A stretch of 56,699 nt of DNA, counting the filler, from Sluysia triapertura (Eukaryota): NCBI GenBank assembly GCA_046118255.1. It is 4 parts of 4 records of this genome, joined end to end, with 100 filler letters (N's around TTAATTAATTAA, not from the genome) between each part and the next. Parts side by side here need not be neighbours in the genome. Positions count along the whole stretch, not along the records: positions 32,958 to 45,194 come from JBJNIA010126631.1; 3 more parts are not named here. One strand, 5' to 3'. Below are positions 3,132-45,294 of this stretch, in pieces. The notes beneath the pieces are model-generated. The model was not told the DNA's origin. It made no database searches and worked only from the letters and a program-made list of their open reading frames with translations. The stretch's first letter is position 1. Each line of letters begins with the position of its first letter. The position numbers and the translations under genes are program-made.

Positions 3132-3597
3132 TTAAATAATTCTGCTAATTGTATGGTATTCATGATAAATAACTATAGATATATTAAAACCTGCATCTAT
3201 GTCTGGCATAGGTATATTTTCTAATGATATATTATCTGGTATTGGAATGTCTTCTGGTTTAATAATATCTTCATCTTTCTGTTTTTTGCTTTGTTGCAGC
3301 ACTGTATCAACTGTAGTGGTAGTTGTGTCTACAGGTGTTATCGATGATGTTCTAACTGCTTCGGCTTTCTTCACTTTCTGTTTGACTTCATTCTCATTCG
3401 ACTCTATGGTATTCTTTTTCGGAGTAACACTGTTAGAAGACAAATAGCCATCAGTCGAAGTTATAGTACTAGTTGTTTTCGAATAAACATCACTGTTGAA
3501 ATTAATACCACCGTGCTTATTTTCTAGATTGTGAGTTTCATCAAATTTAGGTCTAAAAAGTAAATTAGTGCTATTCGTAAGTAATTGCAATTTGAAG
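3132..3597 (-). CDS. DIDO1/PHF3-like gene, exon downstream of SPOC (low-complexity C-terminal region)
   Basis: Acceptor TTGTTAG|C at 3598/3597 is phase-2 compatible with the preceding exon. The frame is open to the stop at 3132, but the exon may instead end at a CAG|GTTTTA donor near 3191. Confidence 0.7.
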
Positions 3598-3704
3598 CTA
3601 ACAATTATAAAATTATAAATTCAGGTTCGATCTAACAATATTTTAATACGAAATTACAATTATTTGAATAATTTCCAAAAATATCTAAACAATAAAAAAC
3701 TCAC

Positions 3705-3988
3705 GAAATAGGATTGAAGTGCACCAATTCAGAAAGTGGAGTTCGAACAATAATTAAAAGTAACAAATGTGGTCTTTTTCGTTCCAAACCGGGTCCATTA
3801 AATGGTAACAAATAAGTGGGCAATTTTGCGTGCGCATTCAGAGGATAAATGTAACAATCTTTTAATCCGCATCTCTTGTGATTTGTAACTCCACAACGAT
3901 TGCGAGAATATAGTTCTTGGAAAATCTGCTGGTACGATTGACGCCCGATCTCCAAGTTAGCTGGATGCAGACGAAACACAATAAATTC
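3705..3988 (-). CDS. DIDO1/PHF3-like gene exon, C-terminal half of SPOC domain
   Basis: EFIVFRLHP...ELYSRNRCGV...LKDCYIYPL...LLPFNGPGLERKRPHLLLLIIVR matches the DIDO1/PHF3 SPOC C-terminus. Splice sites are AAG|GAA (phase 0) and TC|GTGAGT (phase 2). Confidence 0.9.
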
Positions 3989-4372
3989 CTTAATTAAAAC
4001 ACACAATCATTTATAATAGTAATACCAAAGGTTCGTAGAAAAATTCAAAGATCGCGTAACACTTAAAATATTTCTTTAAAATATTAGCTGTCTTCCGAAT
4101 TGGAAATGACTTATTCGAGTAAATATCTCCTGTGTGAAGATAGAGGTTGAGCATCATTCAGTTATTCTTCTTTAAGTGAAAGATGAAATCTTGAAAACTA
4201 AAGCTAACTTTTCCATATTTCTTATTTAAATTGTCTACTTCCTTTATAATCAGTATATATTTCACAAATTCGTTTTCTATTTTGCATACTAAACTAGCGT
4301 TCTTTGAAGATCACTACTTAAGTTTTGTTGTTTGACATCACTATTACTATTTTTATATTTAAGAAAACTTAC

Positions 4373-4906
4373 TTTGTTACTATGCTTACGCAACTTCTTC
4401 AAATAGTCTTCCACTACAGTCATTTTTACTCGCCCATGTAAATTGATTTCCCTACCAATATTTGCAGATAAATTGATTATTTTCTTCAAATTTTCTTGAT
4501 CCTCTTTTGAATTATGTTTATTTTGTTGATTTCCCAATAATAAACGAGAAACTAGAAATGCTTTGCATTCCACAGAACCTATTTCACGATAAACCACAGT
4601 ACCAATCCACATAGGAACTAATTTATTCCTCGGTTGTTGTAGTTGCTGTTGCTGCTGTTGAAATGATTTATTTTCATTGGTCTTAACTACTGTTTGCTGC
4701 TGCTGATTGGACTCAAACGATAATTTGTTTTGTGACTTGATAGGTGTTCTGCTATTCTCTGTCGAATATTCAGGTTGCTCTTCGGATTCCGATATATCCA
4801 TGTCGATGAGGATTTCCGGTGTACGGACTGATGTGGTTACCTTGTCTTCATCGTTGATTTCTGGTGGAGGACTTTCTTTTGATTTTGGTTTGTGTTTATC
4901 AGCAAC
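4373..4906 (-). CDS. DIDO1/PHF3-like gene exon, linker plus N-terminal half of SPOC domain
   Basis: WIGTV...CKAFLVS...INLHGRVKMTVVEDYLKKL is the SPOC N-half. TTTAG|GTT acceptor and AAA|GTAAGT donor are both phase 0. Confidence 0.85.
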
Positions 4907-6173
4907 CTAAATAAAATTTTATAAAAATGTTCTGGTAATAAACATAAAATACTAAAAAATTGAAGATATGAATACCGACTTAAATCCGCGGAACGGTCTG
5001 AACAGTCATACAACTTGCATCTATAATGCAAGATAATCCAAAAATTTCCTTGTCCTTGCTTTTTAGTCTGCGAGACGCTATAACTTAAAAAAATTTATCA
5101 CCACCATTAAAATCCAAAAGAAATGACAAAAATGAACTTTCTATTTTGTTGAAACTCTTCCGCAACATTTCTGTACTTATATTAGTGACTAACTAAAGGT
5201 AATTGTCGAGTTTGACTCATCTCAGAGTGCTGATGAATTATCATTGAAGTTAGGTTTTAACAGAGAAACAATATTAACTAATTTAGCTAAAATCGGTAAA
5301 GTGAAAAAGTACATAAATAGATTCCATATAAACTGAATGAAAAGCAGAAAAAGTTTGGAAGCTTGCTTAATGTCCTAAATCGGATCCATTATTTTTGAGT
5401 CGAATTTTCGAAATGACAATCGCAAACGTTAGACACAGTGGTTGGACATTCCAAAGCGCATTAGTAATCAATAGAAGCTGATAGCAAGATATGATCATTT
5501 ATGATTTCAAGAAAGTGACATCAATATTAAAAATTGAAATTATTATTCTACTACGTCTAACTGGAAGATGGTGGCATGTAGGGCACTTAGAAACGTATTT
5601 ACAAAATTATTAACTTTTAAACTATCAAACAAGTAATAAGGAGGCTTAATCAACACAACTTTGAGACAAGCTAAACTACGATTAAAATCTGATAAAAATT
5701 GTTGAAAGTTTCCAAATTTCTGTTGACTAATTTCATCAACATCCACTCATTTTACTAGAAGTATCATAATCATCTACTCCATGACTTATGAATACTTGAA
5801 TTACAGGTAATTATTTCATTCATTTTTAGACTTAATCTTACTTTATGTTTAAAGGTTTTATTAAAGTTTTAAAATTATTCAGTGCTTCATAAGACATTCA
5901 CATTCACCACTGTAGTTCCTTTTTCTAATTCTTTATTTTAATTATTAATGTATCAAATTTATCTTTAATATTAGTAAGAATGATTTTGTCTTTCAAATAT
6001 TCTAAAAACTTCAACTACTATTCTTAAATGACCATCAGAGTTCAAGATTAGTAAGTCAATAAGGTCTTAAGTGTCTCAAAGTTCACAAATATGTTAGATT
6101 GTACTTTATTGTGTATATATTTTTATATCATTTCTCTAATAATAATTAATTTGTAAATAATAATAATAATAAT

Positions 6174-6532
6174 TGTAGCAGCCATACCCATTACTCAAAA
6201 TTTTGACCCTTCGTAATACACCAACATAAACAACTACACAACCACATAACACTTAAATCACTCAAAACATTAAAATTCAATAAACTCATGTTTAAAATCT
6301 ATCAAAAAAATGAAATGAAATTTCTATAAAAACATCATTCACTTCTCTTAATTCTTTTTTATAACTCACTCATTTATTACTCATTCTCACTTCTCTTTTT
6401 TCGCCATCATACCCACTTTTTAATCATGAACGTCTTGTTCATCACCATGATCGTTTAGAATATCATTATAACTATCATTTACATATTCTAAATACTTGCC
6501 TACCGCACAGCAGGACCGCTACTAAGCTGCAC
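6174..6532 (+). mobile_element. C/A-skewed LTR-like segment
   Basis: Starts TGTAGCAGCCATACCCAT, is strongly C/A-rich and G-poor, and ends near AAGCTGCACA. The start motif recurs at 11859, 41415, 54921(-) and 56422. Confidence 0.45.
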
Positions 6533-6562
6533 AAAATTGAAGATCATATTAATTTAATAGAT

Positions 6563-7420
6563 TTGGAAAATGAGAACAGAGTCATTGAAGAACATGATCA
6601 AAACATAACTGTCAGTGACAATTTTACATCAATATCAACAAACTCTGGTGTTGGTAACAGTAGTCAAAGTAATGTATGTCAACGAAGACCACTTGCAAAT
6701 AATAATGAAAATGGTGAATCACAGATAAAAGAACCGGACCGTGTGTCAAAAGTATGTCAGCATTCAATTACCGGATAACAAAAAGAAGTAAGCGCAAAAT
6801 GTTCAGAAATGCTAGATCCGAAATTAGTACCTAAATTAAGTGTTGATCAATTGTCGGATTATAAAGTGATATCACAATTGATTTATGAGACATAAATAAA
6901 AAGAAAAATTCTAATAATAATGGTAATAATGTTAAACAATAAAAAGTTCTTGCACAAATGTACAATTAAAAGAAAAAACTATAGATAATTTATTGGGCAA
7001 CGAGAACATTAAAACAAATGATATTTATCATATAATAACTGAAAAGATGATATTGAAAATGCAGAGAAAATAAATAAAGATATTCGCAAAGAACACAGCG
7101 AGTAGAAAAGCACTGTTAATAATAGGGATATTGAAATAGTAAAAAAAATAACATCGAATTGTTAAAAGATAATAAAATGGAAAATCAGTTAAAAAGTAGA
7201 AAACAATGTAAATGAAAAGTATTGTAAAATTTTACCGAACGATAAAGAACATATCGAAAATAATCAAAATGAATCTGAAATAAACAAAGTTGTTGCACAA
7301 ATTACAAATTTGGTCGATATTGTTGATGATATAGAATCAAAGACAAATGAAAACGAAAATATGTTTGTTAGTACTAAATCTAAATTAAATGGTTTAATAT
7401 TAAAATTTCAGATCTAATAA
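6563..7420 (+). pseudogene. Decayed N/E/K-rich gag-like ORF of a mobile element
   Basis: Fragmented coding-like frames (e.g. 6563-6778) directly follow the LTR-like segment, with many stops and frameshifts. No diagnostic motif. Confidence 0.3.
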
Positions 7421-8240
7421 TAAATTAATAGTAATAATCATAAATTACTATTAATAATAATAACTATAATAATAAAATGTTCATTTTTTATTTAACTGCA
7501 ACGCAAAAAGTTGCAAAATTCTGCCATATATTAGGACTACTAAAATTAGTAGTCCTCCACAAGTCTACCACAATTTTTAGATAGAATACAATATATTTTG
7601 GCAACCATTATTTCAGAAGCACATGAACTTATAATCATCAAAAGTTAATGTTAATTACTCAACTAGACGAGTATTTACTAATCTCGATGTCGATGAATTT
7701 GATGATATTAAATCAAGTTGTAAAGTTATTTTAATATTTATACAAAATGATTATTTTACTAATTCTACCATTATTAAATCTATATATTTTAGAAATTCCG
7801 AAATATTAACCACTTATGACACAGTGGAATTGAAAGATGTTAGGAATCATGCTAAAAACCATGAATTATTCAGTCAATGAAGTCGGTACCAGCAACAAAG
7901 GCTCACGTGACAGTTACATTAGTTTCATGCAATGGCTTACATCTGATATTCCTAATCCTATGGTGAAATGTGACGATGTGATGAAAGATTATACATGGTC
8001 TGTCTAATCCTGAACGATCGATGCACATCGTGCGAAGTAAAGCTTTCTTAATTCTCTTTCTTCTTCTGTCTTTAATGATAATGAATCATTACATTTCCAT
8101 CTCTCAATGTGTCAGTGTTTAATAGATTAGTTTCGAAGTCTCATTTCAATGATATTTTGTTTTTCAAAGAATATAATATAATTATTTATGTTAAAACTAA
8201 TTTTAGTAATAAAATAATTCTATAATAACTTTCAACCTAA

Positions 8241-8241
<1 letters not shown>

Positions 8242-8303
<62 letters not shown>
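8242..8303. repeat. (AAT)n microsatellite
   Basis: Perfect trinucleotide run. Confidence 0.95.
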
Positions 8304-8304
<1 letters not shown>

Positions 8305-10091
8305 TTTTATTGAGATTAGAAATTGAAATATTGAATTGAAATATTAATGGATTGTTAATTGAAATATTATATTTTTGTAAAAGTATGTATCTCGTTTTTA
8401 ATGGATTTTTTAAAGAATCCATTTTAATGGATTGAATTAATGGAATTTTAAAATTAGAATATTTTAAACTACAATATTAATGAACTTTTAATTACAATAT
8501 TTTATTATGAAAACGCTACTAAAGAAGCAGCAGTAACATAATTTGATTTGAATAAATACATTAGTGAAGTACCAACAATTTTAACGTATTCAGTAATTGT
8601 CTTTCTGAGGTTCAAAGAAGGAAATTTAGACATAATCACTATGAGATTATTATCGAGCTAAAAGCCTGAATTCTTATACGTAAGTTTTATGCTTCATTTA
8701 CTTGAGGTACAATTTTATCACTTAAAATATTTTTATTTAGGCTGGCTTAGACTAGTCACCAACTTCGTTTTAAAGTCAATTTATATTTCACTATGGGTAA
8801 AATTATAGTGTTATAATATTTTATAATTTATTATTATCATGCTTTTTAAGTTTATTGAATATTATATGTAAACGTAATTTAGCTTATTGACTTTGATTTT
8901 TTGTGTTGTTCAAAAGCGTCCTCCGTTAAAAGTTTAGTGACCTGATTTTGATATTTCGTTGGAAGGAATGAACAAATATAAATAAAATAAAAACTCGATA
9001 TTTAATAATTCCCAGAAGTACGTCCTTTTACATAAAAGATAAACCGTGTACTATAGGAGAACCCATTTAAAATAATTTTGCGTATAGGAATTTAATTTTT
9101 AATAAAAATCCTATCTTAATACCTCTAGGTTTTTAATATATTTTAGTATAATTAAAGGATTCAGCCCAGACATTAATAAAAGATTTACATTCATCAAATA
9201 TTCATTACCAAACAATTACAAGATCAACACATGGCAATTCTTACAACTTCGCACGTTTCATCTTCTATATCATGTCAGCAACACTGTGGCATTTAAACAT
9301 ATCCATTTTAAAACATTTTCAGTATTTAACATTCAATTTTCATTTTCATTCTCTGTACCAGCGGATGAAATAAAATAACAGATTCAGTAGTTATCTCATA
9401 TAAAAACTGTAATATCAAGATAAACTCCTCGAATAAAAAATACATTTGTTAGAATATTAGCTGTAATCAGTCATGATAATGTTTACGCCAACTATCGGAT
9501 GTACAGGAGTAAAGAGGCGAGAGTGATGATTTGTGAGTGCATGATCTAGGACAAGATGTTTTTCAAACTAAATAACGAACTGAAAACAAATTGTTCCATG
9601 CAGTTCAACATAGTAAATGAAACCTTTTACCTTACTATCAATGAGTATTTTATATTGAATATGTCATTTTAGTTTTCTCTTGTACTATATAAATCGCATT
9701 ATTCTAGTTGATTTTTCAAGAGTTTGGATCACTCCCATTTACTCTTTAAAATTAAACATGACACATCATAAAGTATATAGAGTTATTAAAGTTTTGCAGA
9801 TTAATCGAAATTAAAACAATCAGGACTTTCGAGTAAAAATATACTCTCGATCATTCATTTTAATTGGCATTGGATAGAGGTAAAGCAATAGTAAAGTTTA
9901 AAGTTAGTACTGATACTAATGAAAGCAAAAGACCTCATAAACACCATAAACTGAACACAAATTGCAGTTATTATAGATTGCAAAGAGAAAGAAAAGATCG
10001 AGTAAAGATTTAAAAGAATAAAATGTATCTGTTTTTATATATATTATTATTATATTTATTTATTTTATTACAATTATTATTTTTCCAACCA

Positions 10092-10093
<2 letters not shown>

Positions 10094-10140
<47 letters not shown>
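10094..10140. repeat. (TAT)n microsatellite
   Basis: Perfect trinucleotide run. Confidence 0.9.
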
Positions 10141-10637
10141 TAATTATTATAACTATTATCATTTTAACTGTTTTATTATTATCGTTTTATTACTATCTGA
10201 GCCTAGCCGTCATCAGTGACAGCATTTTAAATAAACTTAAAATGCTGGTTATGTAGCTGTCTACTGATGACATTACACATTAATGAATTGGTACATTGAT
10301 TGTTTGTTACACACACGCTATCGTTTTATTATTTGATTCAATTGATTTGATTGGACGTCCAATCAATCCAATCATTGTATATTTTTATTTCACATTTATC
10401 TGGACATCCAATCACAAATCACATGCAATACACTTATCATTTCACAACGTGACTCTTAAAAATAACTTCACAATTATAAAATTTATTTACCAAACCAATA
10501 AATTAATAAAAATAGGGTAAAAATCGTTTTGAAAGTGTAAATTAACAAATCGGCATCACCAGAATCACAAATGTATACGAAATCTAAATATAATCATTGA
10601 CCTTTACATGGTAGAAATTAATTAATTAAATACTAAC

Positions 10638-11109
10638 TTTATTGCATAATTTGCAATTGATATCATAAAGATGAATACCGTGCAAATGAGTATTATCTGC
10701 TGTCAGTAAATTAACAACAGATGGCAAGTTATTCTTTGTGGTTGCAGTACTTGATTGACCAATTCCTAGATACTTGTGTGACTTTGAGACATTATTCGAA
10801 TGATTCATTACGTTCGAAGATTCATCATCGATTAAAAATGCTGCGCGATACTTTCCATCTGAATTTGAGACGCACATACCAGTTGCTAAATGTTGCGGCG
10901 ATATACGGCAGCGTAGAAAGTCGTGACTTAATTCAGAATCGGTCTTAAGTAAGTGACACAGATCTTTGGCTCGTTGTAAATAATTTGAAGACAAAACACC
11001 ATTATTGATATCATCTTGATAACTCTTGAATAAAGACTCTTCCAGTTGAGCACAAAGTTCCCATATTTGATGGAAATTGAAATATTTATTATTGGATAAA
11101 TTGGAACCT
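10638..11109 (-). CDS. DIDO1/PHF3-like gene exon, TFIIS central domain plus HxxHLxDxNCKxC motif
   Basis: WELCAQLEESLF...YLQRAKDLCHLLK...ISPQHL is TFIIS-M-like. It is followed by DNTHLHGIHLYDINCKLC, matching the DIDO1/PHF3 'HRAHLFDLNCKIC' motif. TTTCAG| acceptor; the AAA|GTTAGT donor (phase 0) joins the 4906 exon in frame. Confidence 0.85.
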
Positions 11110-11858
11110 CTGAAATGTCAATTTTGATTTTTAAATTCATTTTATCTGATGAATTTCATTTATTATAAAAGAATCTACGAACGAGAAAATTTAAATTCAT
11201 ATTCTTTGTAATGGTAAAAATTTTGAAGGACAAAGAAAAAATTAAAACAATACAGGCAAAAACGCAATAGCGATGTATGTCATTTATTATATGTTCAAAT
11301 AAAAGCTTTTAGCAGAATAATAATTATATATTAATCATTCACTACAATAATTCTGAAACAGAAAGAACTTTGTCTTTTTCTTAAATATTTCATGTAATTT
11401 GACACATTCTCTGGTAGCTAGAGTTAGATCGTCAAATTATTCTTCATGCTCCAGATACATATCAATAAGCATACTTAAATTTTATTGCATGTACCTTTGT
11501 GTTACAAGTGAAGATGTTGAAAGAAAAAAATTAATTAATTAGAATGTTAAGACTAAAATTGATTAAAAGCAAAATTCTTAGTTTTAATATTAATACTAAT
11601 TATAAAGATAACTAATACAGTAATAAAACAGCCAAGCGATACAATAGTACATATATAACTACAACACTTAGCAAATGTGCAAAAACTGTCATGCGAAATT
11701 TTTATTTAAAGTCAAAACTGTATATATAACAGTGATGTAATGGTTTGTTGATTATGCATGTAAAAAATTGATTTTTTGGCATAAAAGAAATTAAATTAAA
11801 ATACGGGTAATAAATTAATGAAAAAGGTATAAATTGTATAAATACGGTTAGTTGTCCG

Positions 11859-15567: not shown

Positions 15568-15667
15568 NNNNNNNNNNNNNNNNNNNNNNNNNNNNNNNNN
15601 NNNNNNNNNNNTTAATTAATTAANNNNNNNNNNNNNNNNNNNNNNNNNNNNNNNNNNNNNNNNNNNN
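15568..15667. other. 100-nt scaffold gap with TTAATTAATTAA linker
   Basis: N run with a six-frame stop spacer at 15612-15623. Confidence 0.95.
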
Positions 15668-32857: not shown

Positions 32858-32957
32858 NNNNNNNNNNNNNNNNNNNNNNNNNNNNNNNNNNNNNNNNNNN
32901 NTTAATTAATTAANNNNNNNNNNNNNNNNNNNNNNNNNNNNNNNNNNNNNNNNNNNN
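32858..32957. other. 100-nt scaffold gap with TTAATTAATTAA linker
   Basis: N run with spacer at 32902-32913. Confidence 0.95.
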
Positions 32958-33858
32958 TTTCTGAGGTGGCAATCTTTAAAATGTCAATCTCTTCTCACAT
33001 CTTCTCTTGCCCAATCTAAACTCTCTAACAAATTACTTCTTAGCTCTGAACTTTCCGATAATGCCTTCTTCTTCTTACTTAAAGCTCGTACCAATACTTT
33101 GCCTCTTAACTTTTCTGCACGCAATCTTAAAACTAACTCCCTTACAAACTGCCGAAGATGCCACGTACTAAATCATTGCGCCTTCAACTCTTCTCTAATT
33201 ACTGATCGACATAATCATGCTCTAAACCTTATCTGCTCTTTCTTTAGGGACCGTGGGGTTGATATTGAATGTTACTCTGAGTACAGGCTTTTCTCTAATC
33301 GCTCAGATGTCCCCGATGAGGTAAAAAGACAGCGACCGGATCTCCTTTTTCAATTCAACTCTTGTTTCTATCTAATTGATGTAAAAACGCCTTTTGATAA
33401 AATCGAAACTTTCTCTTCTATTCATAAAGAAAATTCTCTTAAATATCTTCCCTTCTCACAATATCTCTCTAAAATCACTCGCTCTAAAGTTCTGATCTAT
33501 ACTTTAATCTTTCCTTCTCTAGGCTCTATCTATCCAGAAAACTTCAATACTCTCAGAACCTTCAACTTCAACAAATCAGATATCAACAAAATTTTGGTGG
33601 AAATCTCATTCAACATGGTGAAAATGTCTCACAGAATCTTCATCAACTATATTCTGTCCAGATATCCGAAAATCAAACATCTAACAGCTGCTGCAACTGT
33701 TAAATAAAGAAAATAAAGAAAATTAATGACAATTTATCAATCTCAAAGACAATTTGTTCATCTTTTTCGTGATTCATCTTTTCCATTTTCTTCTCATATG
33801 TAAATCATCATAATATACAGCCCTCGGGCATCGATTTAGCGTTTTGTATATAATAAAA
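32958..33858 (+). mobile_element. 3' end of an RLE-endonuclease non-LTR retrotransposon (NeSL/Utopia/R4-like)
   Basis: KARTNTLP, CRRC-HVLNHC (zinc knuckle with spacer deleted), RHN, RPDL...LIDVK..F...KY (PD-(D/E)xK endonuclease). Stop at 33707, short 3' UTR ending in AATAAAAA. Confidence 0.9.
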
Positions 33859-33919
33859 ATTTGGTAGTTCGAATTATAAATTATACGAATGATAATAAAT
33901 GGTTATTTACAGGAACTAA

Positions 33920-35990
33920 ATGGGAAGAATTGTTAATTATAAAATACCAACACATATTAATGTAATAAGCGATACGAAAAATAATAAAATAAAATTACGA
34001 CGGGATATACAAGAAGAGGATTATGGAGAAATTCATATCAATAACAAAAATTTAACCAAAAGGCAGAAGGAACAACTACATGAAGTTATACATCGATTTC
34101 CAAGAGCAATTTCAAAAAATAAATACGATATTGGAGATTCAGTAATTATAAAACATGTGATACCATTAACAGAGGATAAGGTAATTCGAAGAAAACCGTA
34201 TAGAATTCCTATTTGCAATCAAAAAGAAATGCAAGATCAAATTGACACTATGAAGAAAGCTGGAGTAATAAGACCGAGTTTCTCTCCTTTTTCATCACCA
34301 GTATTATTAGTGAAAAAGAAAGACGGTACAATGCGATTCTGTATAGACTTTAGAGAATTAAATAAGATAACAAGAAAAGATGTATTTCCCCTACCACGAA
34401 TAGACGAGATGTTAGACAAATTAGGGAATGCCACGACTTTAGATTTACAAAGCGGATATTGGCAGATAGAAATAGCGGAAAAAGACAAGCAAAAAACGGC
34501 GTTCACATGCGGAAATGAATTATACGAGTGCGAAAAGATGCCATTTGGTTTAACAGGTGCACCAGCAACGTTCCAACGTTGTATGAATTTTGTACTATCA
34601 GAATGTAAAAATGTCATGGTTATATAGATGACATTATAATATTTTCAAAGGACTTTAAAATTCATCTGGAAGATATAGATAATATATTAAAAAGATTGGA
34701 AGTTGCCAGACTTAAAATAAAGCCTACAAAATGTGTATGGGCAGAAGAAAAAGTTGAGTTCTTAGGACACATAGTATCTAAATATGGTATTAAACCAAAT
34801 CCAAGAAATATTGAAGAGGTAATTAAGTTTCCTCAACCGGATAACGTTAAAAAGGTTCAGAGTTTTCTAGGTTTGGCTAATTATTATAGAAGATTTGTTA
34901 AAAATTTTGCGAAAATTGCACAACTTCTTAGAAAACTTACAAAAAAGGATGTAGAATTTAAATGGATCGAAGAACAGATGAAGGCATTTAACGAATTAAA
35001 AGAACATTTAACTACAGCACCAATATTAATATTTCCGGATGTTAATAAACCTTTTATACTAACTACGGATGCTAGTAATTACGCTATCAGTGCAATTTTA
35101 GGCCAAAAGGATAAAAATAATCGTGAAACAGTTATAGCATACGCCAGGAGAAGACTTAATAAAGCAGAAATGAATTATTCAACAGTTGAAAGAGAATACA
35201 TAGCAATTGTATATGCATGTAAATTGTTCAGACATTACTTGTTAGGACAAAAAGTTTATTTGTATACTGATCATAAACCTTTAACATATTTGTATAATCA
35301 CCGAGATGAAGTTAGCAGACTCAACCGATGGTTTAATAAATTATCAGAATTTAACTTGGAGATTGTCTACAAATCTGGTAGTTTAAATAACGGGGCCGAT
35401 TGTATGTCTAGATTGACGAATGTAGATGATGAAGGAAATATCAATTTAATACAAATTATGTCAGTATCGGGAAATTTACAGAACTATGAAGATATTATTA
35501 AACATCAAAGAGAAGATAAAGAAATTTCGGCTATTCTAGATGGGTTAGCTAAAAGAACTTTAAATGAGTTACATTCAAAAAGATTAGCTATTATTGATGG
35601 AATATTGAGATTTAAAAATAATAAAGACGAATGGAAAACTATTATCCCAGAATCATTAATTATAATATTTTAATACAATTAGGTCACTTATCAACGAGGA
35701 AAACATTATTGAGAATTAAAAATAAATATTACAGGGAAAATATGGAATCAGATATAAGAAAATGGTGATGAAAAGTAGGTGATGAAGTACTCAAAGATTA
35801 TACGATAACTAAACCTGGACATTCGCCAAAATTACAAAAACCTTTTAAAGGATCTTATTTGATAACAAAAGTTACCGATACAAATTTGTTTGTTAAGGAT
35901 CCTAATAAGATTAATTCTGAAACGTTTGTGGTACATGTCAACAGGTGTAAATTAGCACCGAAAGAGGAATATAATTTAAGAAATAGAAAG
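33920..35990 (+). pseudogene. Gypsy pol: RT, RNase H and integrase remnants
   Basis: RT: KPYRIP, SPFSSPVLLVKKKDG..RFCIDFRELN, LDLQSGYWQI, MPFGL..APATFQR, and YIDD at 34621-34632 after a 1-nt frameshift. RNase H: TDAS, E, TDHKPL, ADCMSR. The integrase HH region (~35680) is joined directly to the GPY/F module (KLQKPFKGSY), with the DDE core deleted. Confidence 0.95.
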
Positions 35991-36119
35991 GTACAAAAAT
36001 CAAAATTAAAAATTCAACCAAGACATAATGATCGAGATAAACCGCCGTCAATTCATACACTAAGGAGTAATCAAGTGGTATTCATGATGAATTCTCATAG
36101 AAATGACTTAACTCATATA

Positions 36120-36470
36120 ATGCAAAATGTACGATTTAACGGACGATGGGTTAGAGCAATCGTAGATACCGGCGCTACTATTACTGTGGTTCATAAAAAC
36201 TTTCTAATTACTTGGGAATCAATATTCTTAAACAGACCAAGTCTAATAACATGTAATGTTAATCAAACACCTATAAATATCAATGGAACTTTATCATGTT
36301 ATATAGAAATATTAGGACAATATGTACAAACTGTAGCAAATGTTTGGGATAATAGCCCATATGAACTAATACTGGGAATGGATGTTATTAATAAATTGGA
36401 AGATATGGTTATTCATAGCATGTATGGATTTATAAAAATACCACCAGGTTCAAACATGATCATACCATAA
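36120..36470 (+). CDS. Second retropepsin-like aspartyl protease, downstream of integrase
   Basis: VRAIVDTGATITVV active site and YELILGMDVI C-terminal motif, in frame with the integrase C-terminus (ORF 35859-36470). Confidence 0.85.
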   Translation: MQNVRFNGRWVRAIVDTGATITVVHKNFLITWESIFLNRPSLITCNVNQTPININGTLSCYIEILGQYVQTVANVWDNSPYELILGMDVINKLEDMVIHSMYGFIKIPPGSNMIIP

Positions 36471-38925
36471 CTAGTAGTTCCACAAGACGGTGATTAGTTA
36501 ACTTTATATCAAATGCCAATGTCAAATCCACCACTACAAGTTCCAGACTTACCCGACATTGTCGAATCTACACTCCACTTATCAGATGTGTCATGAGGTT
36601 CACCATCATCAATTACATCAGAAGAAAATTCGGATTCAGGAATCAGTTCAGATAATAACTAATATAAGAAAAAGAAATTGTCTTAGTAAAAATCGTTTTG
36701 GGAAAATAACTTGTTGGCTTTCTATCCTAATTATGATTTTTCTATCACTAATAACTAATGTCATGGCAACAGAAACAGCCGAAGAATATAAAAATATGAA
36801 TATATCTACAAATCATGGCAGGGAACAAAAAATAATGATTAGTGACATTTACAACCAATATTGGAAATTCGAATTCATTTCTAAGAAAATGATTCTTTAA
36901 CACAAATTTGAAATTTATTGTATCTCTTTGAAACCATTATTAGTGGGAAAGCCACATCATTTGGACGGTATCCCACATTGTTTACATTACGGTTATAGAC
37001 AAATGCTAATAACTTTCTCTTTTGACACTCCAAGAAATACACGAGACATCCGAAAATTTATTAAGCAAATAGATCAGTTGAGTAATGAAGACACAACGAA
37101 AATACAGACAACCCTATCTGATTATAGTGCAATTGGGAAATCAATAGTTAATTTAAACAATTCAACTGCAATCGGTAAAATGGAACACTCTTATAAATTC
37201 TTTATAATATTACTAATTTTTTACATTACTATACTTATTTTGGACGATACTCTATGTGTATCAGATAGGTAAGAAAATACAGGTCCCGCGAACAACAAAA
37301 ATCTAATACCTTTAATTTTGATTACGATAATTACAGTAGTTCAATGTCACGAACAATCTTTTAAGACGGAGTATTTTGAATTTTATAATGGAAACAATGA
37401 AGCAAAAGTTAAAATATTAAATGAAAATGTTCATGCCAAATTTGCATGTTTGAAACCTGCCAGACTTAACTTTCGCTCATAGGTTATATACGAAAATTAT
37501 ATTAATAGTGAATTGAGGTATCCCGTCACGGTTTGCTCAGATATTTTACGTGTTGAAGATAGACATTATAGTGAAATACCGTCACTCATCAAAATACTTG
37601 CACTTTGCATTTAAATGTACAAGAAAACATCTAACAATATTGGAGGTATTACGGAATGATCCAGCGTTAATGATGCTAATTGTGGTGGCAATGCTATTCA
37701 TAATTGTTCTAGCTATAGTGGTATTAACTATTATTATGTTTGTTTCGAATAGATGCCGATATCCATGTCTATCGCATAACAATAATAATGTCGACGACGA
37801 CGCGTATACAGTTCCACATAGAAACAATTACGCTCCTCCTCCAGGTATGCCAATACTCCCACCTCCAATTTACGAATACGCTACAAACAATCAAATACCG
37901 CTTATATACGGAGATTGGCAAATGACTCAAGTAAAATCTACAATCTTGATATGTATCTACCTATCTTGTATATCAAGTACAAATTATTTATCAGAAAACT
38001 CCACGCCTAAAATAATTTTAGTCTCTACTCAAAAAGACGTATACGCTAGAATATTAATTGACGAAATTAAGTTATTTTCGGCCCGAATAAAATGTTGTAT
38101 AATGGATTGGTGTGAAATTGAGACAAGAGCAAGTAAACAGGATTCCTACTGGTTCATATCGTGTATCGATCTTGCTGAATATCAACTAATTAGTGTAACA
38201 ATAACTATGGAACTAGAATATGACTCCCAGAGTGACTCCAGGACTATTTTAATGCGATATTACAAGATAAGAACTAAACCATTTGTTTTTCGACAATCTT
38301 CAATAGTAGTTGAGTTTCCAATGATCATCTATCGCGATCTCCGAAATGTTGTACGCATATATAATCCGCTATACAATAATACATTATTGATCGCCTACAA
38401 ATTGAGTAATGGTTTACGTTATGGAATAATATTGCCTAATGAAACCATTCGCTTATATCATATTCCGAATTATATACTCATGTTTGTCAAATTCTGGATA
38501 ATAAGAAAAACAGAAATACTTAATTCTAAAGGATTCTAGCCAACAATTAGATATCACGACGAGCAGGTACCAATTATAGATAAAAACGAAAATGATTCTG
38601 ATACAAAATCAGAAAAATGCTTCTAATCAATAACAATGGTACGAATATAGCTTATGGCAAGCATAAGAACTTTAGTCCAGCCACTATCAGTAGGAATAAG
38701 AACGTAAGTCTGAATGCTACTAGTATAGATAAGAAAGTAAATAAGGAAAACACTAATTTTTCAATTATGAGAGAATCTAACAATAATTTCATCATAACTG
38801 TAAACTGTATTTTAATAATAACTTCTTTGTTAACCTTAATAATTAATTTTGTTATCCCAAAATTCTATTTGTTTATTAGGCATAGGGCTCATTTCTTTAT
38901 AATGGTTTTAATACATATTGCATAA
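36471..38925 (+). pseudogene. Accessory membrane polyprotein (several signal-peptide/TM segments, PPxY tail), mildly disrupted
   Basis: Frames continue across single stops and frameshifts. Hydrophobic segments lie at ~36710, ~37195, ~37300, ~37665, ~37935 and ~38790, with LPPPIY after the TM. The homologous relic has a sense codon where this copy has the 36898 stop. Confidence 0.7.
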
Positions 38926-39189
38926 TTGACCATATATACTCCCATTCATGTTGGAACATATGTGATATTAAAATTGATTTTGTAATATAGTAAGGATCGT
39001 GCATATGACTGAATGTGATGGTTTACCATCCATCTCGGCTCATGCACGAACTTAAAATTTTATATATGTGTAGGATTTTTCTTTTTAATTTTCTAATACT
39101 AAGTTTTTCTACAATTAATTTTGTTAATGAAATATAAAATTAAATGATTTTAATAAGCTTACTTATTTATAATTTTTCTGTACAATTTT

Positions 39190-40386
39190 ATGTTTCTCTC
39201 CAGTTACAGAATTAAGATGCAAGCCAGGATCCTGAACCAACCAAAAAATTTTTATCTCCACGTGGACAAATTCTGCCACCAGTGTATTATCCCCGCTTTC
39301 TTTTCTTGCTCTGTCGATACCCCTAACAACCTTAAGTCAGAACTAAATCTTAATCTGGAAACACCTTTGATTTCACTAGATGGCTTATCCCAAATTCCTC
39401 AGATGATAGATTCCTTGTATTTGGCTGTGGCACGAGGAGTAGTTAAGGTTGCACTAGTTGATAATGGGGTCCAGTTTCATACTCGTGCCCACATGTTCTC
39501 CTCACTATACATCTCAAAGATACACAAGAAGTGTAACATTGTTATCGAGGCTACAGAATACCCCACTTCGATTACCCTTCTTTTCCCATTGCTACCCTCT
39601 TCCTTCCAATCGTTTCTCCCTAATTTGTATAAGGAAGACATCGCTAATCTGACGCGATGGAGAAATGGAACGTCCTTTACGCATGTTCCACCTATGTTCC
39701 ACCGCTTGGTCTTCGTCGCATATTCGTACGCTTTCGATTTTTTAAATCAACCTCATATCGCCCATTTGTCCTGTGTTCCTTACTCCCGCCAATTTCCCAC
39801 AGATGTAAATATTAAATCTCGCCTGCGTATTAAGAATTTTGTGAAGGACGTTCACGAAATGAAGGATTCGGATATTTCCGAGGCGAAGGATGTTGACGAT
39901 GTCGGCCCTTTTCTGTTGGAACATATTCACGATAAAATTCTAGTTTCATTAAATCCTTGCCTCATCATCCGTGACCTGAATCTTCCTTTCGGGTGGCTTA
40001 AAGGAATTATAAACTTATCCAACAATAATCTTTTATCTTATACCACGGACAATGAAATCTTGAGGGGACGGCTTACTTTTAAACTGCTTTATCCCGTGCC
40101 TCCCCGGATGACATGCTCACGAATGTCATTCGAACTGGTGAGCCTTTTGGATCTGATTCGTGAGAAAGACCCGACCTTTATTCTCCCTCCACCATCGCTT
40201 TTTTCTAATTTCCCCCTTTTCTCCTCTACTAATACTCTCGTGGCACATTCTAAATCAACATTACCATCACTAACTACGACACCTCCCCAATTAACAGCCA
40301 CTCCATCAACATCAACTGAATTATTGCAGACAGCAACTACTCTACCAAACCATCTATCATCACATACTCAATTACATAATAAATAA
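39190..40386 (+). CDS. Intact orphan accessory protein of the gypsy element (likely start at ATG 39217)
   Basis: 398-codon uninterrupted ORF, GC-richer than its flanks, with a T/P/S-rich tail. The second ATG is preceded by a pyrimidine tract + CAG (39193-39203). A diverged homolog lies at 17980-18355. Confidence 0.8.
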   Translation: MFLSSYRIKMQARILNQPKNFYLHVDKFCHQCIIPAFFSCSVDTPNNLKSELNLNLETPLISLDGLSQIPQMIDSLYLAVARGVVKVALVDNGVQFHTRAHMFSSLYISKIHKKCNIVIEATEYPTSITLLFPLLPSSFQSFLPNLYKEDIANLTRWRNGTSFTHVPPMFHRLVFVAYSYAFDFLNQPHIAHLSCVPYSRQFPTDVNIKSRLRIKNFVKDVHEMKDSDISEAKDVDDVGPFLLEHIHDKILVSLNPCLIIRDLNLPFGWLKGIINLSNNNLLSYTTDNEILRGRLTFKLLYPVPPRMTCSRMSFELVSLLDLIREKDPTFILPPPSLFSNFPLFSSTNTLVAHSKSTLPSLTTTPPQLTATPSTSTELLQTATTLPNHLSSHTQLHNK

Positions 40387-40620
40387 CCAAAAATTCCTCA
40401 ATCACCACCGGAGTCTCCTCGACCAACACACATACCACGTGGATCGAATACAAAAATTCGTCAATGGAAGAAGAAATTATACCAATCTATGAGTAGCCCA
40501 CCGAAATTGACGATGTGGAGCGACGACTCCGAAGTGGACCTAGATGATTTTTAACTCATTATGATCTTCTTATTTGTTGTATTATCACAATACTTCCACG
40601 ATTCGAGACGAATCTTCCCG

Positions 40621-40632
40621 AAGGGGGAAGTA
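40621..40632 (+). promoter_or_regulatory. Polypurine tract
   Basis: AAGGGGGAAG just before TGTGAAA at 40634. Confidence 0.8.
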
Positions 40633-40633
40633 T

Positions 40634-41175
40634 TGTGAAATATAAAAATTTTGTTGTAAAAATTGTAAAAAATCAATTTTGTGTAAATATTGTCTTGTTT
40701 TTGTATAAATATTATCTTAAAAAAATTAAAAAAATTAATTAAAAGTATTTATGAAAATATTTAATATTATTAATTAAATCATAATTAGAATTTTAATTAT
40801 TGAGCATAATTAATCTAACGTATTTTAAAAATAGAATAAAAGATTACAAATTTATTATAAATATTTATTTTGAATAAAATTAGAAAATTTATCATACATA
40901 TTTATAAAACATTGAATAAACTTAGAAAAATTATAAATTTATAAATATTTAATATTTAACTCTATAATTAGAATTAGCTTGCATAAGAATATATGAAGAA
41001 AAAGACAAGTAAAGCCTTTTCACAATTTCTCAGTCAATAATTTAGTTGGACAAAAAGGTCGTTTAACTCTTGGAAATTTGGTATTACTGGTAACGCATAA
41101 TATATTTACCTAAGGAAAATTAAGGAGAAAACTAATATATTCAATTTATGATCTGAAGACGTTGAGAACAATCGA

Positions 41176-41212
<37 letters not shown>

Positions 41213-41275
41213 TCGTTTTTTGGAAAATTTATATATACGCAACTTAAGTAAGCTTATTCATATTAAGTTTTGACA
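40634..41275 (+). repeat. 3' LTR of the gypsy element
   Basis: Starts TG after the PPT and is AT-rich. Candidate ends are TTTCACA (41024) or TTTTGACA (41275). No 5' LTR is present for comparison. Confidence 0.55.
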
Positions 41276-41414
41276 TAGATAAGTGCCTCAAAATCTCACG
41301 CAAAATCTCCATTTGTTTTTGTAAAGCCAAAGATTACCTCTGGGTTAAATTTGAATTTAAAATATTATAATAATTAATCATTTGTATTATATAATCTACT
41401 TTTATTATATATAT

Positions 41415-43865
41415 TATAGTGGTCAACACTCATAATTTAAAATTATTCAAAATTTCTTGATCAATATTTACAAATTAAATTCCACTAAAATTCAAATTTT
41501 AAAATAATCATACTTTTCATTTTCGAACTAAACCAACATAAACATCATAAAACAACATTCGATATTTACAACACCCACCAACTCACATATATTAACAATT
41601 CAACTAATATTTCAACCATCTATAGCATAACAAACTTCGACATTTAATCTCGAATAATTCACAACATTTACCCACAAGACGTTTCAACAAACAAACCACA
41701 ATCACAATACAAAATACACAAATCATAAACATAACAACATTATTCATCAACGCTAAAAACATAGACTATTGCCATCTAAAACCTAAATCAACAACACCGA
41801 CCTACATCCACTTCATATACACATATTCATCATTCACAGTTACTCGCAATAACATTATAAAATATGAAGACTTATTTTGTAATCATCATTAAAATTAAAA
41901 TAACTTCAACTTTCCAATAAACATTTTAAACCATTAAATCTAATGCAAAAATCTTGTTTTTAAATTGTAAACCTTCAATAAGTTTCAATAAATTATTCTA
42001 ACATTCTCCACTTCACTTACAATCTAAACCATTACATCTGTTAAAAACAAATTTAAGATAACTTTAAAGAATTCATTATTCGACCTTGAAGCAACAACGA
42101 TAACCGACATTTAATATATCTTATTACCGTTGCTCCTTTACAGTGTATTATTTGTTTGTTGTTTCTCTATTAATTTTATCATTTTTATATGTAAGAAGGT
42201 TTAAAAATACAAAGAATAAGATCGTGTTTAAGAGTGTTAAAGGTTTATGCGTTTCTTTTAAAATTTTATAATAATAATAACAATAATTTTATCATTATTA
42301 TTATTATAATACTGTTATTATTATCATCATTATTGCTGTTATTATTTTATTTTCGTCAATACCTAAAAATAAAATAAATAAAATTTAATTATTGTAGTTC
42401 AGACTGGTTACTGCAATCACCAACACTGACAACCTATTTACATTTTTCATTAGGCTGTCAGCGTTGATGATGGTCGGTGATCAGACATAATTCACAGGAA
42501 TCGATTTTGTGTCACAAATTAGTTGATTTTTCTTATCGCCCAATCAGAGTGAATATAACTCTCAAAATACTTACAATACTCTGATTGGGCAGGCTAAAAA
42601 AAGAACTAAAACTAAAAAATAATCAATAAAAAATTTTTGTACGCACAGTTAAAAATTTTCTGACAACAATTAGAAAATTCCAGACAGTAAAAAATTCTCC
42701 AGACAAAATGGATCATCATTTTAGTAAATCATGTATTAATATTAATGCAAGAGCAATGCAGTTTTCATCGCATATTTTAACTGATCTTTTATGTCATTCT
42801 ACTCATTATATGATGAAAAATTGTATGGAACAAAAGGATAAAGCATTCTCAACAATCTTATCAACAGAGTTATCAACAATCTTATTATTGTGTTAAGAAT
42901 CAACCATTTTAAAGTGTACAATTTGGATTTGTCAAATGAGTTATCTGAAGAATTAAACAATATATTGTTATTTTTATTAAGACTACTAACGATGACAAGA
43001 CAGATGATTCATATCGATTTATAATTGAACCAATTCTCAAGATTAATGTAAACGATTGGAATCTACTCGAACTAAAACATAAATTGTTAAAGTCACTAAT
43101 ACCAAGCAGGTGGGCCCACTTTCCAAAATCTTTATGGTGTAATAATTACAATTATGATAAATACGTTATGACTCAGCTTCGTGTTCGACATGAAAATAAT
43201 TTTATATCATTCAGAATGCATATTAACAATCAATTTTCAATTTTAGTATATCATCATGAAGGAAATGAGTCCAGTTTGATGCGATATATTTTATACGCAA
43301 ATGTGACGTCAAAAAAGAGTTTAATTGATTCGACAATCAAATTATTGCGACATCGGTGTGAATTGACGGATTCAAGATTAAAGTTCATTTTGATTAAAAT
43401 ATCAACACTAGGAGATAGATATGTCAAGAGATGTAATTCAATTTATGATAAAGTCGGAAGTATGATGACAAAACCTTATAGATTAATCCAAACTCCTACT
43501 CTTTTGTTTTTTTCAGATCGTGTTACATATACATTCAATTTCATATGAAGTAGATGAAATGATTTTTAGAAATGTCACGAGATACATCTATAAGTTGGAA
43601 TATGCTGCAGATATCCTAAAACAAGAAAAAGCGATCTATGTAATAAAAACGTTTTATCTGAATATAAAGTATGAATCATCAATTAATTGTGATTTATCTT
43701 GAAACTTTTCAACAGTATCTTTTAGGGTCTCGAGTACCTTTCAATATCGTAGTGTGGAAAATTCAGCGATTTGCTTTATCATTGCATGGTGATATAAACA
43801 TAATTCCAATTAAATTCTGTGAAGTTTCATTTAATAACAAATTTGTAAGTCTTAATTCGATTTAA
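41415..43865 (+). mobile_element. Decayed element: C/A-rich leader, T-rich tract, hairpin/CCAAT module, broken orphan ORF
   Basis: TATAGTGGTCAACACTCAT start (family motif), inverted repeats at 42416-42471 and 42538-42590, and overlapping ORF fragments 42708-43865 consistent with one frameshifted gene. Confidence 0.4.
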
Positions 43866-45194
43866 TTATTTAATTGTCTTTTAGTCATTTTATCATTCTA
43901 AGGTTGATAAAAGATATACTGACATAAAAGTAAATAAAATTAATTACGAAATAAATATAAATCTCATAAATATAAATAAATATAAATACCAAACTTTAGA
44001 TTAAACAGTTATCTTATAGATACTTCATGCTTATTCTTATTCTGTAGAAAACCACTTAGCCCAATCCTTTTTATTGAAAACAAATATGTGCCCTCAAATA
44101 TAGCTTATGCCTTGAAGATTAATAATAAGTTCAAAAATAGATCTTCAAAACTTTGTTCATCACATTACAAACCCATAGTATCAACTATATCCACGATTGA
44201 GTTCCATTCTATCAAGTGTACACAGAAAAAAGTAAATATCAAATAATGTCGGTATTTAACGGATAATCAATTAAATAGCTCTATCAACTGAGCGATTAGT
44301 TAGATGTACACAAAGATGATCCCACTTAATTCAAAACACGTGATTAAAACATTTTCTTAATCAAAAGTAGATTGAGTTTATTAACATTTTGGTTCTCAGT
44401 AAATCGGATATAAAAAGTAGAAGATTTTGACATGCATTTTAGTGCTCATAATACGATTGTCCTTAAGCAAGTATTAAACTTACTAAACTGTAAAAATTAT
44501 CAATTTTCTCAAAACAATGTGGCATCTGAATTGTGACGAATGACAAATTGAATTTTATAAATTGAATAGTATAAAATGATTAAAATAGTGAAATAGTATT
44601 TTTACTGACTTTCATCCAATCAGTATTTCGTATGTGTGACACTTGATATTTAATTATATTTAAAATAACAATTAATTTTTCAAATTAAGATTTAAAAATT
44701 GTTTATTATTATTATTATTAATCAGATGAAGATGTGAACGTTATCTCAACCTAACAATTCAGAGCTTTAATTTAAACGAAGCTGCTGTAAATGTTTTGCA
44801 GTGGTTTTCCTAACCTTACGCTAAAAGAATAAAATAAACTTATAAGTGAGTTCACCAACGTACTAGGCTTACCGATTAGAGCTAGCCGTTAGATTTTTTA
44901 AATAAAAGAATTTTATTTGACGATTAAAAATTTCTTAATGCTCATGGTTTAATCCTAAAGCATTTGCTGGCTTAGTTAAAAATTGCTGTTGGCTTAATGA
45001 TAAAATGAAATTTGGAGGTTATAAAACTTTTATAATTCTATTATAGGTTCTATATAGAATTTATATAAGTTGATTTTACAAATAAGAATGAAATTTTGTT
45101 AAAACTTTAATGCACAGGCGAATTTTTGTGATTTTGAAGCTATATAAGTTACTGTCTAAATTCAAAACAAAAGTCGAATTTTAAATTAATCCTC

Positions 45195-45294
45195 NNNNNN
45201 NNNNNNNNNNNNNNNNNNNNNNNNNNNNNNNNNNNNNNTTAATTAATTAANNNNNNNNNNNNNNNNNNNNNNNNNNNNNNNNNNNNNNNNNNNN
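45195..45294. other. 100-nt scaffold gap with TTAATTAATTAA linker
   Basis: N run with spacer at 45239-45250. Confidence 0.95.

What the first reader, a model, noticed from the sequence alone, without database searches (positions are those of the whole stretch)
39190..40386. Intact orphan ORF X, probably expressed from a spliced subgenomic RNA
Seen: 398 codons with no disruption, while pol and the polyprotein of the same copy have multiple stops, frameshifts and deletions. It is GC/pyrimidine-richer than pol, and TTTCTCTCCAG sits 13 nt before ATG 39217. No signal peptide or known motif. Inference: a cytoplasmic or nuclear accessory protein (e.g. a silencing suppressor) translated from a spliced RNA, possibly still under selection or co-opted.
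Basis: partly seen in the sequence, partly recalled or inferred. Interest (0 to 1): 0.7.

Follow-up and report, generated by a model that had tools for sequence, protein, structure and literature searches.

The report
Dead exonuclease gene of a retrotransposon
The supposed orphan gene is the last reading frame of a decaying gypsy-type retrotransposon; its protein is a distant relative of ISG20/REX4-type RNA-trimming exonucleases but lacks their catalytic residues, so it likely served the element as a non-cutting RNA-binding helper, probably made from a spliced RNA, and its survival in this copy is no more than chance decay would allow.

Summary
The frame is real (39190-40386, 398 codons; likely start ATG 39217), GC- and pyrimidine-rich, and preceded by an acceptor-like tract. 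It is not an orphan and probably not intact. It is the 3' accessory gene of a broken Ty3/gypsy element, lying just before the polypurine tract. Residues about 163-317 are a DEDDh (REX4/ISG20/SDN1-like) 3'-5' exonuclease domain. A profile of ORF X and two database relatives picks, from 3,279 frames in 84 loci, the two 3' ORFs of L005 (E 9e-9, 1e-7; next 0.29). L005 has the same pol-second protease-polyprotein layout, and one of those ORFs is a Pfam RNase_T exonuclease. ORF X and three relatives lack the ExoI/ExoII acids where aligned, so the loss is family-wide: a pseudo-nuclease. The frame stays open 55 codons past the TAA, so that stop is likely premature. With 13 breaks in 5 kb upstream, 0-1 breaks here is unremarkable (P 0.05-0.24), so co-option is unsupported. 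Splicing, expression, dN/dS and function are untested; fold searches were inconclusive. Exonuclease ORF3s are known from rotifer LTR elements (DEDDy type, catalytic residues kept); a dead DEDDh version was not found in my searches.

The parts
39217..40386 (+). ORF X from the likely start ATG to the TAA (389 codons); upstream in-frame ATG at 39190
   Evidence: relatives P0128 and L005:7283-8740 align from their first Met
39217..39700 (+). N-terminal domain of unknown fold (residues about 1-160)
   Evidence: significant only against P0128 (score 63, 0 of 2000 shuffles reach it); not significant against the L005 ORFs; model pLDDT about 30
39703..40167 (+). Degenerate DEDDh exonuclease-like domain (residues about 163-317), catalytic residues absent
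40201..40383 (+). Pro/Ser/Thr-rich linker (49% P+S+T)
40387..40554 (+). 55 open codons in the same frame after the TAA: P/S-rich, a basic patch, acidic end; likely the original C-terminus
   Evidence: L005:7283-8740 ends in a similar S/T/P-rich then acidic tail
39158..39203 (+). Candidate 3' splice site: 44-nt AG-free stretch, pyrimidine tract, CAG; further AGs end at 39209 and 39216
   Evidence: use in vivo untested
40620..40630 (+). Polypurine tract, followed after 4 nt by TG (likely start of the 3' LTR, about 40635); LTR end not defined
   Evidence: no 5' LTR in this contig to compare
33920..35770 (+). Broken pol: RT, RNase H, start of integrase; frameshifts near 34620 and 35650; integrase core missing near 35767
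35772..36470 (+). Integrase C-terminal part followed by a second aspartic protease
   Evidence: Pfam gag-asp_proteas 1.8e-7; same order in L005
36471..38925 (+). Broken polyprotein region with several hydrophobic (signal or transmembrane-like) segments
   Evidence: one continuous frame at the same place in L005

Best explanation
ORF X is the 3'-terminal accessory gene of a decayed Ty3/gypsy LTR element; it encodes an unknown N-terminal domain, a DEDDh-type exonuclease-like domain that lacks the catalytic residues and a low-complexity tail, and in active copies it was likely translated from a spliced RNA and likely acted as a non-catalytic RNA-binding adaptor on the element's own RNA, while in this copy it is probably truncated and decaying neutrally. 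Shown: position, homology, absence of the ExoI/ExoII acids in this and related proteins, and a break count compatible with chance. Inferred: capture of a REX4/ISG20-like exonuclease by this gypsy lineage, then loss of catalysis under continued protein-level constraint; splicing from a donor in the missing 5' part to the acceptor at 39203; binding of RNA 3' ends or single strands to shield or escort element RNA. My odds by step: domain identity 0.9, catalytically dead 0.9, neutral decay in this copy 0.8, splicing 0.6, RNA-binding adaptor role 0.45.
For: Homology: phmmer of 1.84 billion representatives gives 2 hits, P0128 (E 9e-18) and P0129 (E 1.2e-4). The profile of X+P0128+P0129 (A4, no active enzyme in it) ranks L005:9043-10371 (E 8.7e-9) and L005:7268-8740 (E 1.1e-7) first among 3,279 frames of 84 loci, next best 0.29. 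L005:9043-10371 is Pfam RNase_T at 1.5e-11 and hits SDN1, ISG20L2 and ISG20 in the PDB. Against PDB sequences, A4's best hit is 2p1j (PolC fragment, E 0.0037; its other hit, TAF1 at 0.15, is unrelated). A5's 3 of 3 hits are 2p1j, ISG20L2 and SDN1 (E 0.00089, 0.059, 0.63). hhalign of A4 with the active pair: probability 87, E 4e-6, 96 columns. ORF X's own best NCBIfam hit is a 3'-5' exonuclease (E 0.07). Catalytic columns: X has A168, S170, I250, M298, M303; P0128 A/Q/I/F/E; L005:7283 S/R/Q/E/E; P0129 -/-/I/G/E; the active pair has D/E/D/H/D. Single mutation of any of the five abolishes activity in ISG20L2 (PMC10899777, passages). Element context: L005 is the only locus in the window's RT/RNase H clade (7 rows, support 99) and shares the second protease. 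Diverged copies cover ORF X in run X1 (2 of the 8 pieces shown, about 86% alike, net gaps of 27 and 3 letters). Decay statistics.
Against: ORF X alone hits nothing in Pfam above noise, PDB sequences or the 5.8-billion set; the two-sequence full-length profile A8 has 0 PDB hits at E up to 10; tblastn of X against the 84 loci gave no row at E up to 1. Identity to the active enzymes is only 17-22%, and the ExoIII register is uncertain (alternative reading S301/E306). The family is six proteins, with genomic context for only two elements. The active L005 exonuclease lies beyond a purine tract and an 89-nt tandem repeat, so it may not belong to that element. P0128 (365 aa) ends soon after the domain, so the TAA could be a natural stop. 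If it is, P(0 breaks) is 0.05-0.095, borderline. The 13 breaks were partly read by eye and assume one original polyprotein frame. The domain has no net charge (19 K+R, 19 D+E), and RNA binding is not shown.
Confidence: 0.6

Rival explanations
1. The pseudo-nuclease is a counter-defence protein: it binds small-RNA pathway intermediates or partners, or competes with host DEDD nucleases (a decoy), and so suppresses silencing of the element.
For: Inactive DEDD derivatives Maelstrom and EXD1 act in piRNA biogenesis and keep RNA binding (PMC5408684 discussion); the closest solved relatives include SDN1 (named small RNA degrading nuclease) and antiviral ISG20; loss of catalysis recurs in four sequences.
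Against: No functional data; resemblance of fold class only; a search for transposon-encoded exonuclease suppressors returned 1 opinion paper about helicases.
Confidence: 0.2
2. It works like Cer1 CERV or retroviral Rev: the last exon of a spliced mRNA, giving a nuclear factor that exports unspliced element RNA.
For: [quoted passage not shown]
Against: CERV's G domain is described as Rossmann/G-protein-like and its M domain as Cys-rich; ORF X's domain matches DEDDh exonucleases. No direct sequence comparison with CERV was possible.
Confidence: 0.12
3. This copy's ORF X has been co-opted by the host and is kept intact by selection.
For: It is the longest open stretch of the element (1,167 nt against 1,030 and 927 nt); if the TAA is the natural end, P(0 breaks) is 0.05-0.095.
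Against: Likely premature stop; P 0.14-0.24 with the tail; longest-stretch P 0.56-0.83; diverged copies exist in X1; PPT and likely LTR are still attached.
Confidence: 0.06
4. The exonuclease resemblance is spurious and ORF X is an unrelated fold (for example SGNH or Rossmann-like, my first guess by eye).
For: No single-sequence Pfam or PDB hit; low identity.
Against: Several searches converge on DEDD exonucleases, and the best hits lie in the one locus of the same pol clade. No SGNH family appeared in any scan.
Confidence: 0.05

Closest known systems
DEDDy exonuclease ORF3 of bdelloid rotifer LTR retrotransposons (Juno, Vesta; Rodriguez, Kenefick, Arkhipova 2017, PMC5408684)
   Same: [quoted passage not shown]
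   Different: Those are DEDDy/RNase D-like with catalytic residues intact (DEED). Here the relatives are DEDDh (ISG20/REX4/SDN1-like), the catalytic acids are lost, there is an extra N-terminal domain, and the ORF follows a second protease and a membrane polyprotein.
ISG20 / ISG20L2 / REX4 / SDN1 DEDDh exonucleases
   Same: Sequence-profile match across the central part of the domain; the active relative L005:9043-10371 has all five catalytic residues.
   Different: ORF X has none of the five in alignment A6 (the last position is uncertain); 17-22% identity; encoded by a retroelement.
Maelstrom and EXD1 (inactive DEDD derivatives of the piRNA pathway; as described in PMC5408684)
   Same: DEDD-family domain without catalytic residues, presumed RNA-binding or adaptor role.
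   Different: Host genes on the silencing side; no sequence match to them appeared; analogy only.
CERV of C. elegans Cer1 (PMC10309623)
   Same: 3' ORF of a Ty3/gypsy element, last exon of a spliced mRNA, includes a pseudo-enzyme domain.
   Different: Different domain (G-protein-like and Cys-rich M domain); shown experimentally to export genomic RNA; homology to ORF X not indicated and not directly tested.

Membership tests
DEDDh 3'-5' exonuclease family (ISG20/REX4/SDN1/DnaQ-like) | Sequence homology to the DEDD domain | tested here: met
   by profile and through relatives, not by a single-sequence Pfam hit
DEDDh 3'-5' exonuclease family (ISG20/REX4/SDN1/DnaQ-like) | ExoI D-x-E | tested here: not met
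   A168 and S170
DEDDh 3'-5' exonuclease family (ISG20/REX4/SDN1/DnaQ-like) | ExoII Asp | tested here: not met
   I250 in an ungapped block
DEDDh 3'-5' exonuclease family (ISG20/REX4/SDN1/DnaQ-like) | ExoIII H-x4-D | tested here: inconclusive
   M298/M303 in alignment A6; alternative register S301/E306 by eye; no His in either
DEDDh 3'-5' exonuclease family (ISG20/REX4/SDN1/DnaQ-like) | RNase H-like alpha/beta/alpha fold | tested here: inconclusive
   model mean pLDDT 39, residues 233-325 mostly 50-74 with strand/helix order compatible; fold searches matched only the unreliable N-terminal strands
DEDDh 3'-5' exonuclease family (ISG20/REX4/SDN1/DnaQ-like) | Metal-dependent 3'-5' nuclease activity | not testable with these tools
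   predicted absent from the missing residues
Rotifer-type DEDDy ORF3 of LTR retrotransposons | [quoted passage not shown] | tested here: met
   LTR inferred from PPT and TG only
Rotifer-type DEDDy ORF3 of LTR retrotransposons | DEDDy/RNase D type with intact catalytic residues | tested here: not met
   active relative is DEDDh (H395-x4-D400, RNase_T); ORF X lacks the acids
Ty3/gypsy (Metaviridae) element | RT-RNase H-integrase order | tested here: met
   integrase core deleted in this copy, whole in L005
Ty3/gypsy (Metaviridae) element | Two LTRs, primer-binding site, gag | tested here: inconclusive
   5' part absent from this contig; PPT and likely 3' LTR start only
CERV (Cer1) | Cys-rich M domain plus Rossmann-type G domain | tested here: inconclusive
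   C-terminal domain matches DEDDh instead; N-terminal domain unassigned; CERV sequence not available to compare
CERV (Cer1) | Spliced mRNA and role in export of genomic RNA | not testable with these tools
   acceptor-like sequence only
Domesticated (host co-opted) retroelement gene | Intact ORF beyond chance within a decayed element | tested here: not met
   borderline only if the TAA is the natural end
Domesticated (host co-opted) retroelement gene | Purifying selection on the copy, orthologous locus, expression | not tested
   no genome held; no usable sequences of other copies

The most novel reading that the evidence does not exclude
A lineage of gypsy elements captured an ISG20/REX4-type exonuclease, duplicated it and turned one copy into a dedicated pseudo-nuclease that binds element RNA or small-RNA machinery to block silencing or decay: a transposon-side counterpart of Maelstrom/EXD1, with L005 possibly preserving the active and dead paralogues side by side.
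Probability: 0.2. Interest if true: 0.75.

Novelty: new variant of a known kind. Interest (0 to 1): 0.45.

Why it matters
Few accessory genes of animal LTR retrotransposons have an assigned fold, and very few transposon-encoded anti-silencing or RNA-handling proteins are known. A family-wide dead DEDDh domain, with an active relative next to a dead one in a related locus, gives a concrete and testable pair for asking how elements protect their RNA. It also turns a claimed co-opted orphan into an ordinary decaying copy of an unusual element family (second protease, membrane polyprotein, exonuclease-derived 3' ORF).

Full report
Setting. The window is AT-rich eukaryotic DNA in pieces separated by N-runs; the finding lies on the piece 32958-45194. 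No whole genome is held. The host is not identified; an invertebrate animal is my inference from a DIDO/PHF3-like gene (SPOC, TFIIS_M; gene name recalled) and from insect names among more distant pol hits. On the + strand lie a broken RT/RNase H (33920-35670), the integrase C-terminus with a second aspartic protease (35772-36470), a broken region with hydrophobic segments (to 38925), ORF X, a polypurine tract at 40620-40630 and a likely LTR start.

Observation. The frame is there: 409 codons stop to stop, 398 from ATG 39190, 389 from ATG 39217. ATG 39190 abuts the pyrimidine tract, and relatives align from the Met at 39217, so 39217 is the likely start.

Is it intact? The same frame stays open for 55 codons after the TAA at 40384-40386. 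GC stays near 0.4 to about 40550 and then falls to 0.06-0.28. An open run of 55 codons has P 0.002-0.01 at flanking composition and 0.047 at its own. The positional relative in L005 ends in a similar S/T/P-rich, then acidic tail at a purine tract. Against this, P0128 ends soon after the folded domain. I put a premature stop at 70%. A contig of run X1 matches 40146-40638 with no difference, so the stop is not a one-off assembly error, though X1 may be the source sample.

Is it better kept than the rest? I counted 13 frame breaks in 5,006 nt of pol plus polyprotein. They were partly read by eye and assume one original frame, as in L005. ORF X codons are less prone to become stops (0.031 against about 0.04). 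Expected breaks are 2.6-3.5. P(0 in 1,167 nt) is 0.048-0.095, and P(at most 1 in 1,335 nt) is 0.14-0.24. Since the longest frame was picked after the fact, the fair test is the longest open stretch, P 0.56-0.83 for 11-15 breaks; stretches of 1,030 and 927 nt exist upstream. There is no signal of selection on this copy. Diverged copies cover ORF X in X1: of 8 pieces shown (19,678 in all), two lie in it with 54 and 45 differences and net gaps of 27 and 3 letters. dN/dS could not be computed.

What the protein is. Single-sequence searches were blank. A full phmmer scan gave 2 relatives among 1.84 billion: P0128 (29%, E 9e-18) and P0129 (E 1.2e-4), both unnamed. A pol-based scan of part of the metagenome collection returned 80 loci. 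The best, L005 (48% in RT/RNase H), shares integrase C-terminus plus second protease (E 2e-18). It is the only locus in the window's 7-row clade (support 99; FastTree on 63 of 84 loci, 30 of 120 proteins and the window). After its polyprotein come two ORFs: 7283-8740 (no Pfam) and 9043-10371 (RNase_T, E 1.5e-11), the latter hitting SDN1, ISG20L2 and ISG20. A profile of ORF X, P0128 and P0129 alone ranks these two first among 3,279 frames (E 8.7e-9 and 1.1e-7, next 0.29). Pairwise scores of the C-terminal half exceed 2000 of 2000 shuffles for P0128 and both L005 ORFs, and 1995 of 2000 for P0131. Independently of L005, that profile's best PDB hit is 2p1j, a PolC fragment (E 0.0037; second hit TAF1 at 0.15, unrelated); that 2p1j is the exonuclease domain is recalled, and fits. 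Adding L005:7283 gives 3 of 3 DEDDh hits. hhalign gives probability 87, E 4e-6, and ORF X's top NCBIfam hit is a 3'-5' exonuclease at E 0.07. Against: tblastn found no row for X at E up to 1, the full-length two-sequence profile had no PDB hit, and structure prediction was too weak (pLDDT 31 and 39) for fold searches to decide.

Catalytic state. In alignment A6 the five DEDDh positions read D/E/D/H/D in the active pair (P0130, which is L005:9043-10371, and P0131) and A/S/I/M/M in ORF X, A/Q/I/F/E in P0128, S/R/Q/E/E in L005:7283 and -/-/I/G/E in P0129. The ExoI and ExoII blocks are ungapped; the ExoIII register is uncertain. Each residue is essential in ISG20L2 (PMC10899777, passages). The loss is shared by proteins only 19-29% identical, so it predates this copy's decay. 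R202 and D225 are invariant in the four dead proteins and different in the active pair. Residues 1-160 are homologous to P0128 (z 7) but not demonstrably to the L005 proteins; their fold is unknown.

How it likely works. Shown: a dead DEDDh-like domain in the last ORF of the element. Inferred: a downstream ORF needs its own mRNA. A 44-nt AG-free stretch, a pyrimidine tract and CAG (one of 4 Y8CAG sites on both strands of the window) point to splicing from a donor in the missing 5' part; the L005 active ORF also has CTAAT and a T-run with AG directly before its ATG. A nuclease domain kept without its metal ligands most often serves as an RNA-binding or protein-docking module (own knowledge; Maelstrom and EXD1 as cited in PMC5408684). 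I therefore favour an adaptor that binds and shields or escorts element RNA. A silencing decoy and a CERV/Rev-like export factor are the specific alternatives. None is tested.

Comparison and novelty. Rotifer LTR elements carry DEDDy exonuclease ORF3s with catalytic residues intact (PMC5408684; abstract and passages). Cer1 encodes CERV from a spliced last exon in the same slot, with a different pseudo-enzyme domain (PMC10309623; abstract, outline and passages). PMC13524379 (passages) and PMC6338049 (passages) added no such ORF in what I read. My searches found no report of a DEDDh-type or catalytically dead exonuclease ORF in LTR elements, within a library that lacks most subscription papers; no supplements were read. 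ORF X is homologous to DEDDh exonucleases but fails their catalytic definition, so I file it as a pseudo-nuclease derivative and a new variant of a known kind. One caution: in L005 the active ORF lies beyond a purine tract and an 89-nt tandem repeat and may be outside that element.

Verdict. Real ORF, wrong emphasis: not an orphan, probably not intact, not shown to be co-opted. The worthwhile result is a family-wide dead DEDDh accessory protein in a gypsy lineage that also has a second protease. Interest 0.45.

Noticed in passing
window 35772-36470; L005 about 3465-4030: A second aspartic protease follows the integrase C-terminus in the same frame in both elements; in L005 it is followed by ankyrin repeats and hydrophobic segments in one frame of at least 2,368 codons. 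Unusual for gypsy pol to my knowledge and possibly more novel than ORF X.
   Followed up: partly
window 36471-38925: Broken polyprotein region with at least four strongly hydrophobic segments and a PPxY-like proline motif near 37850-37880; no Pfam hit and no clear env homology.
   Followed up: partly
window 32961-33707: 3' end of what looks like a non-LTR retrotransposon with a restriction-like endonuclease (motif recalled; Pfam only DUF5382 at 0.016), directly upstream of the RT, where gag and the 5' LTR are missing.
   Followed up: no
L005 8725-10374: Purine tract at the end of the dead exonuclease-like ORF, then a 2 x 89-nt tandem repeat, then an intact DEDDh ORF with an acceptor-like AG just before its ATG; a 71% identical relative, P0131, exists.
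   Followed up: partly
window 42949-43548: 199-codon + strand ORF with no Pfam hit and no match in the 84 loci, in a stretch covered by several diverged X1 contigs; possibly part of another repeat.
   Followed up: partly
window about 3100-11120, - strand: Exons of a host gene with TFIIS central and SPOC domains (DIDO/PHF3-like, name recalled).
   Followed up: no
window 15568-15667, 32858-32957, 45195-45294: N-runs with a 12-nt six-frame-stop spacer: assembly joins, so neighbouring pieces may not be truly adjacent.
   Followed up: no
L006, L008, L020, L025, L071, L084 (3' of pol): Other gypsy loci carry 380-580-codon ORFs after pol with no Pfam hit; L071 and L084 have downstream frames with aspartic protease matches, L071's also with a MYND finger. 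Unrelated to ORF X by profile.
   Followed up: no
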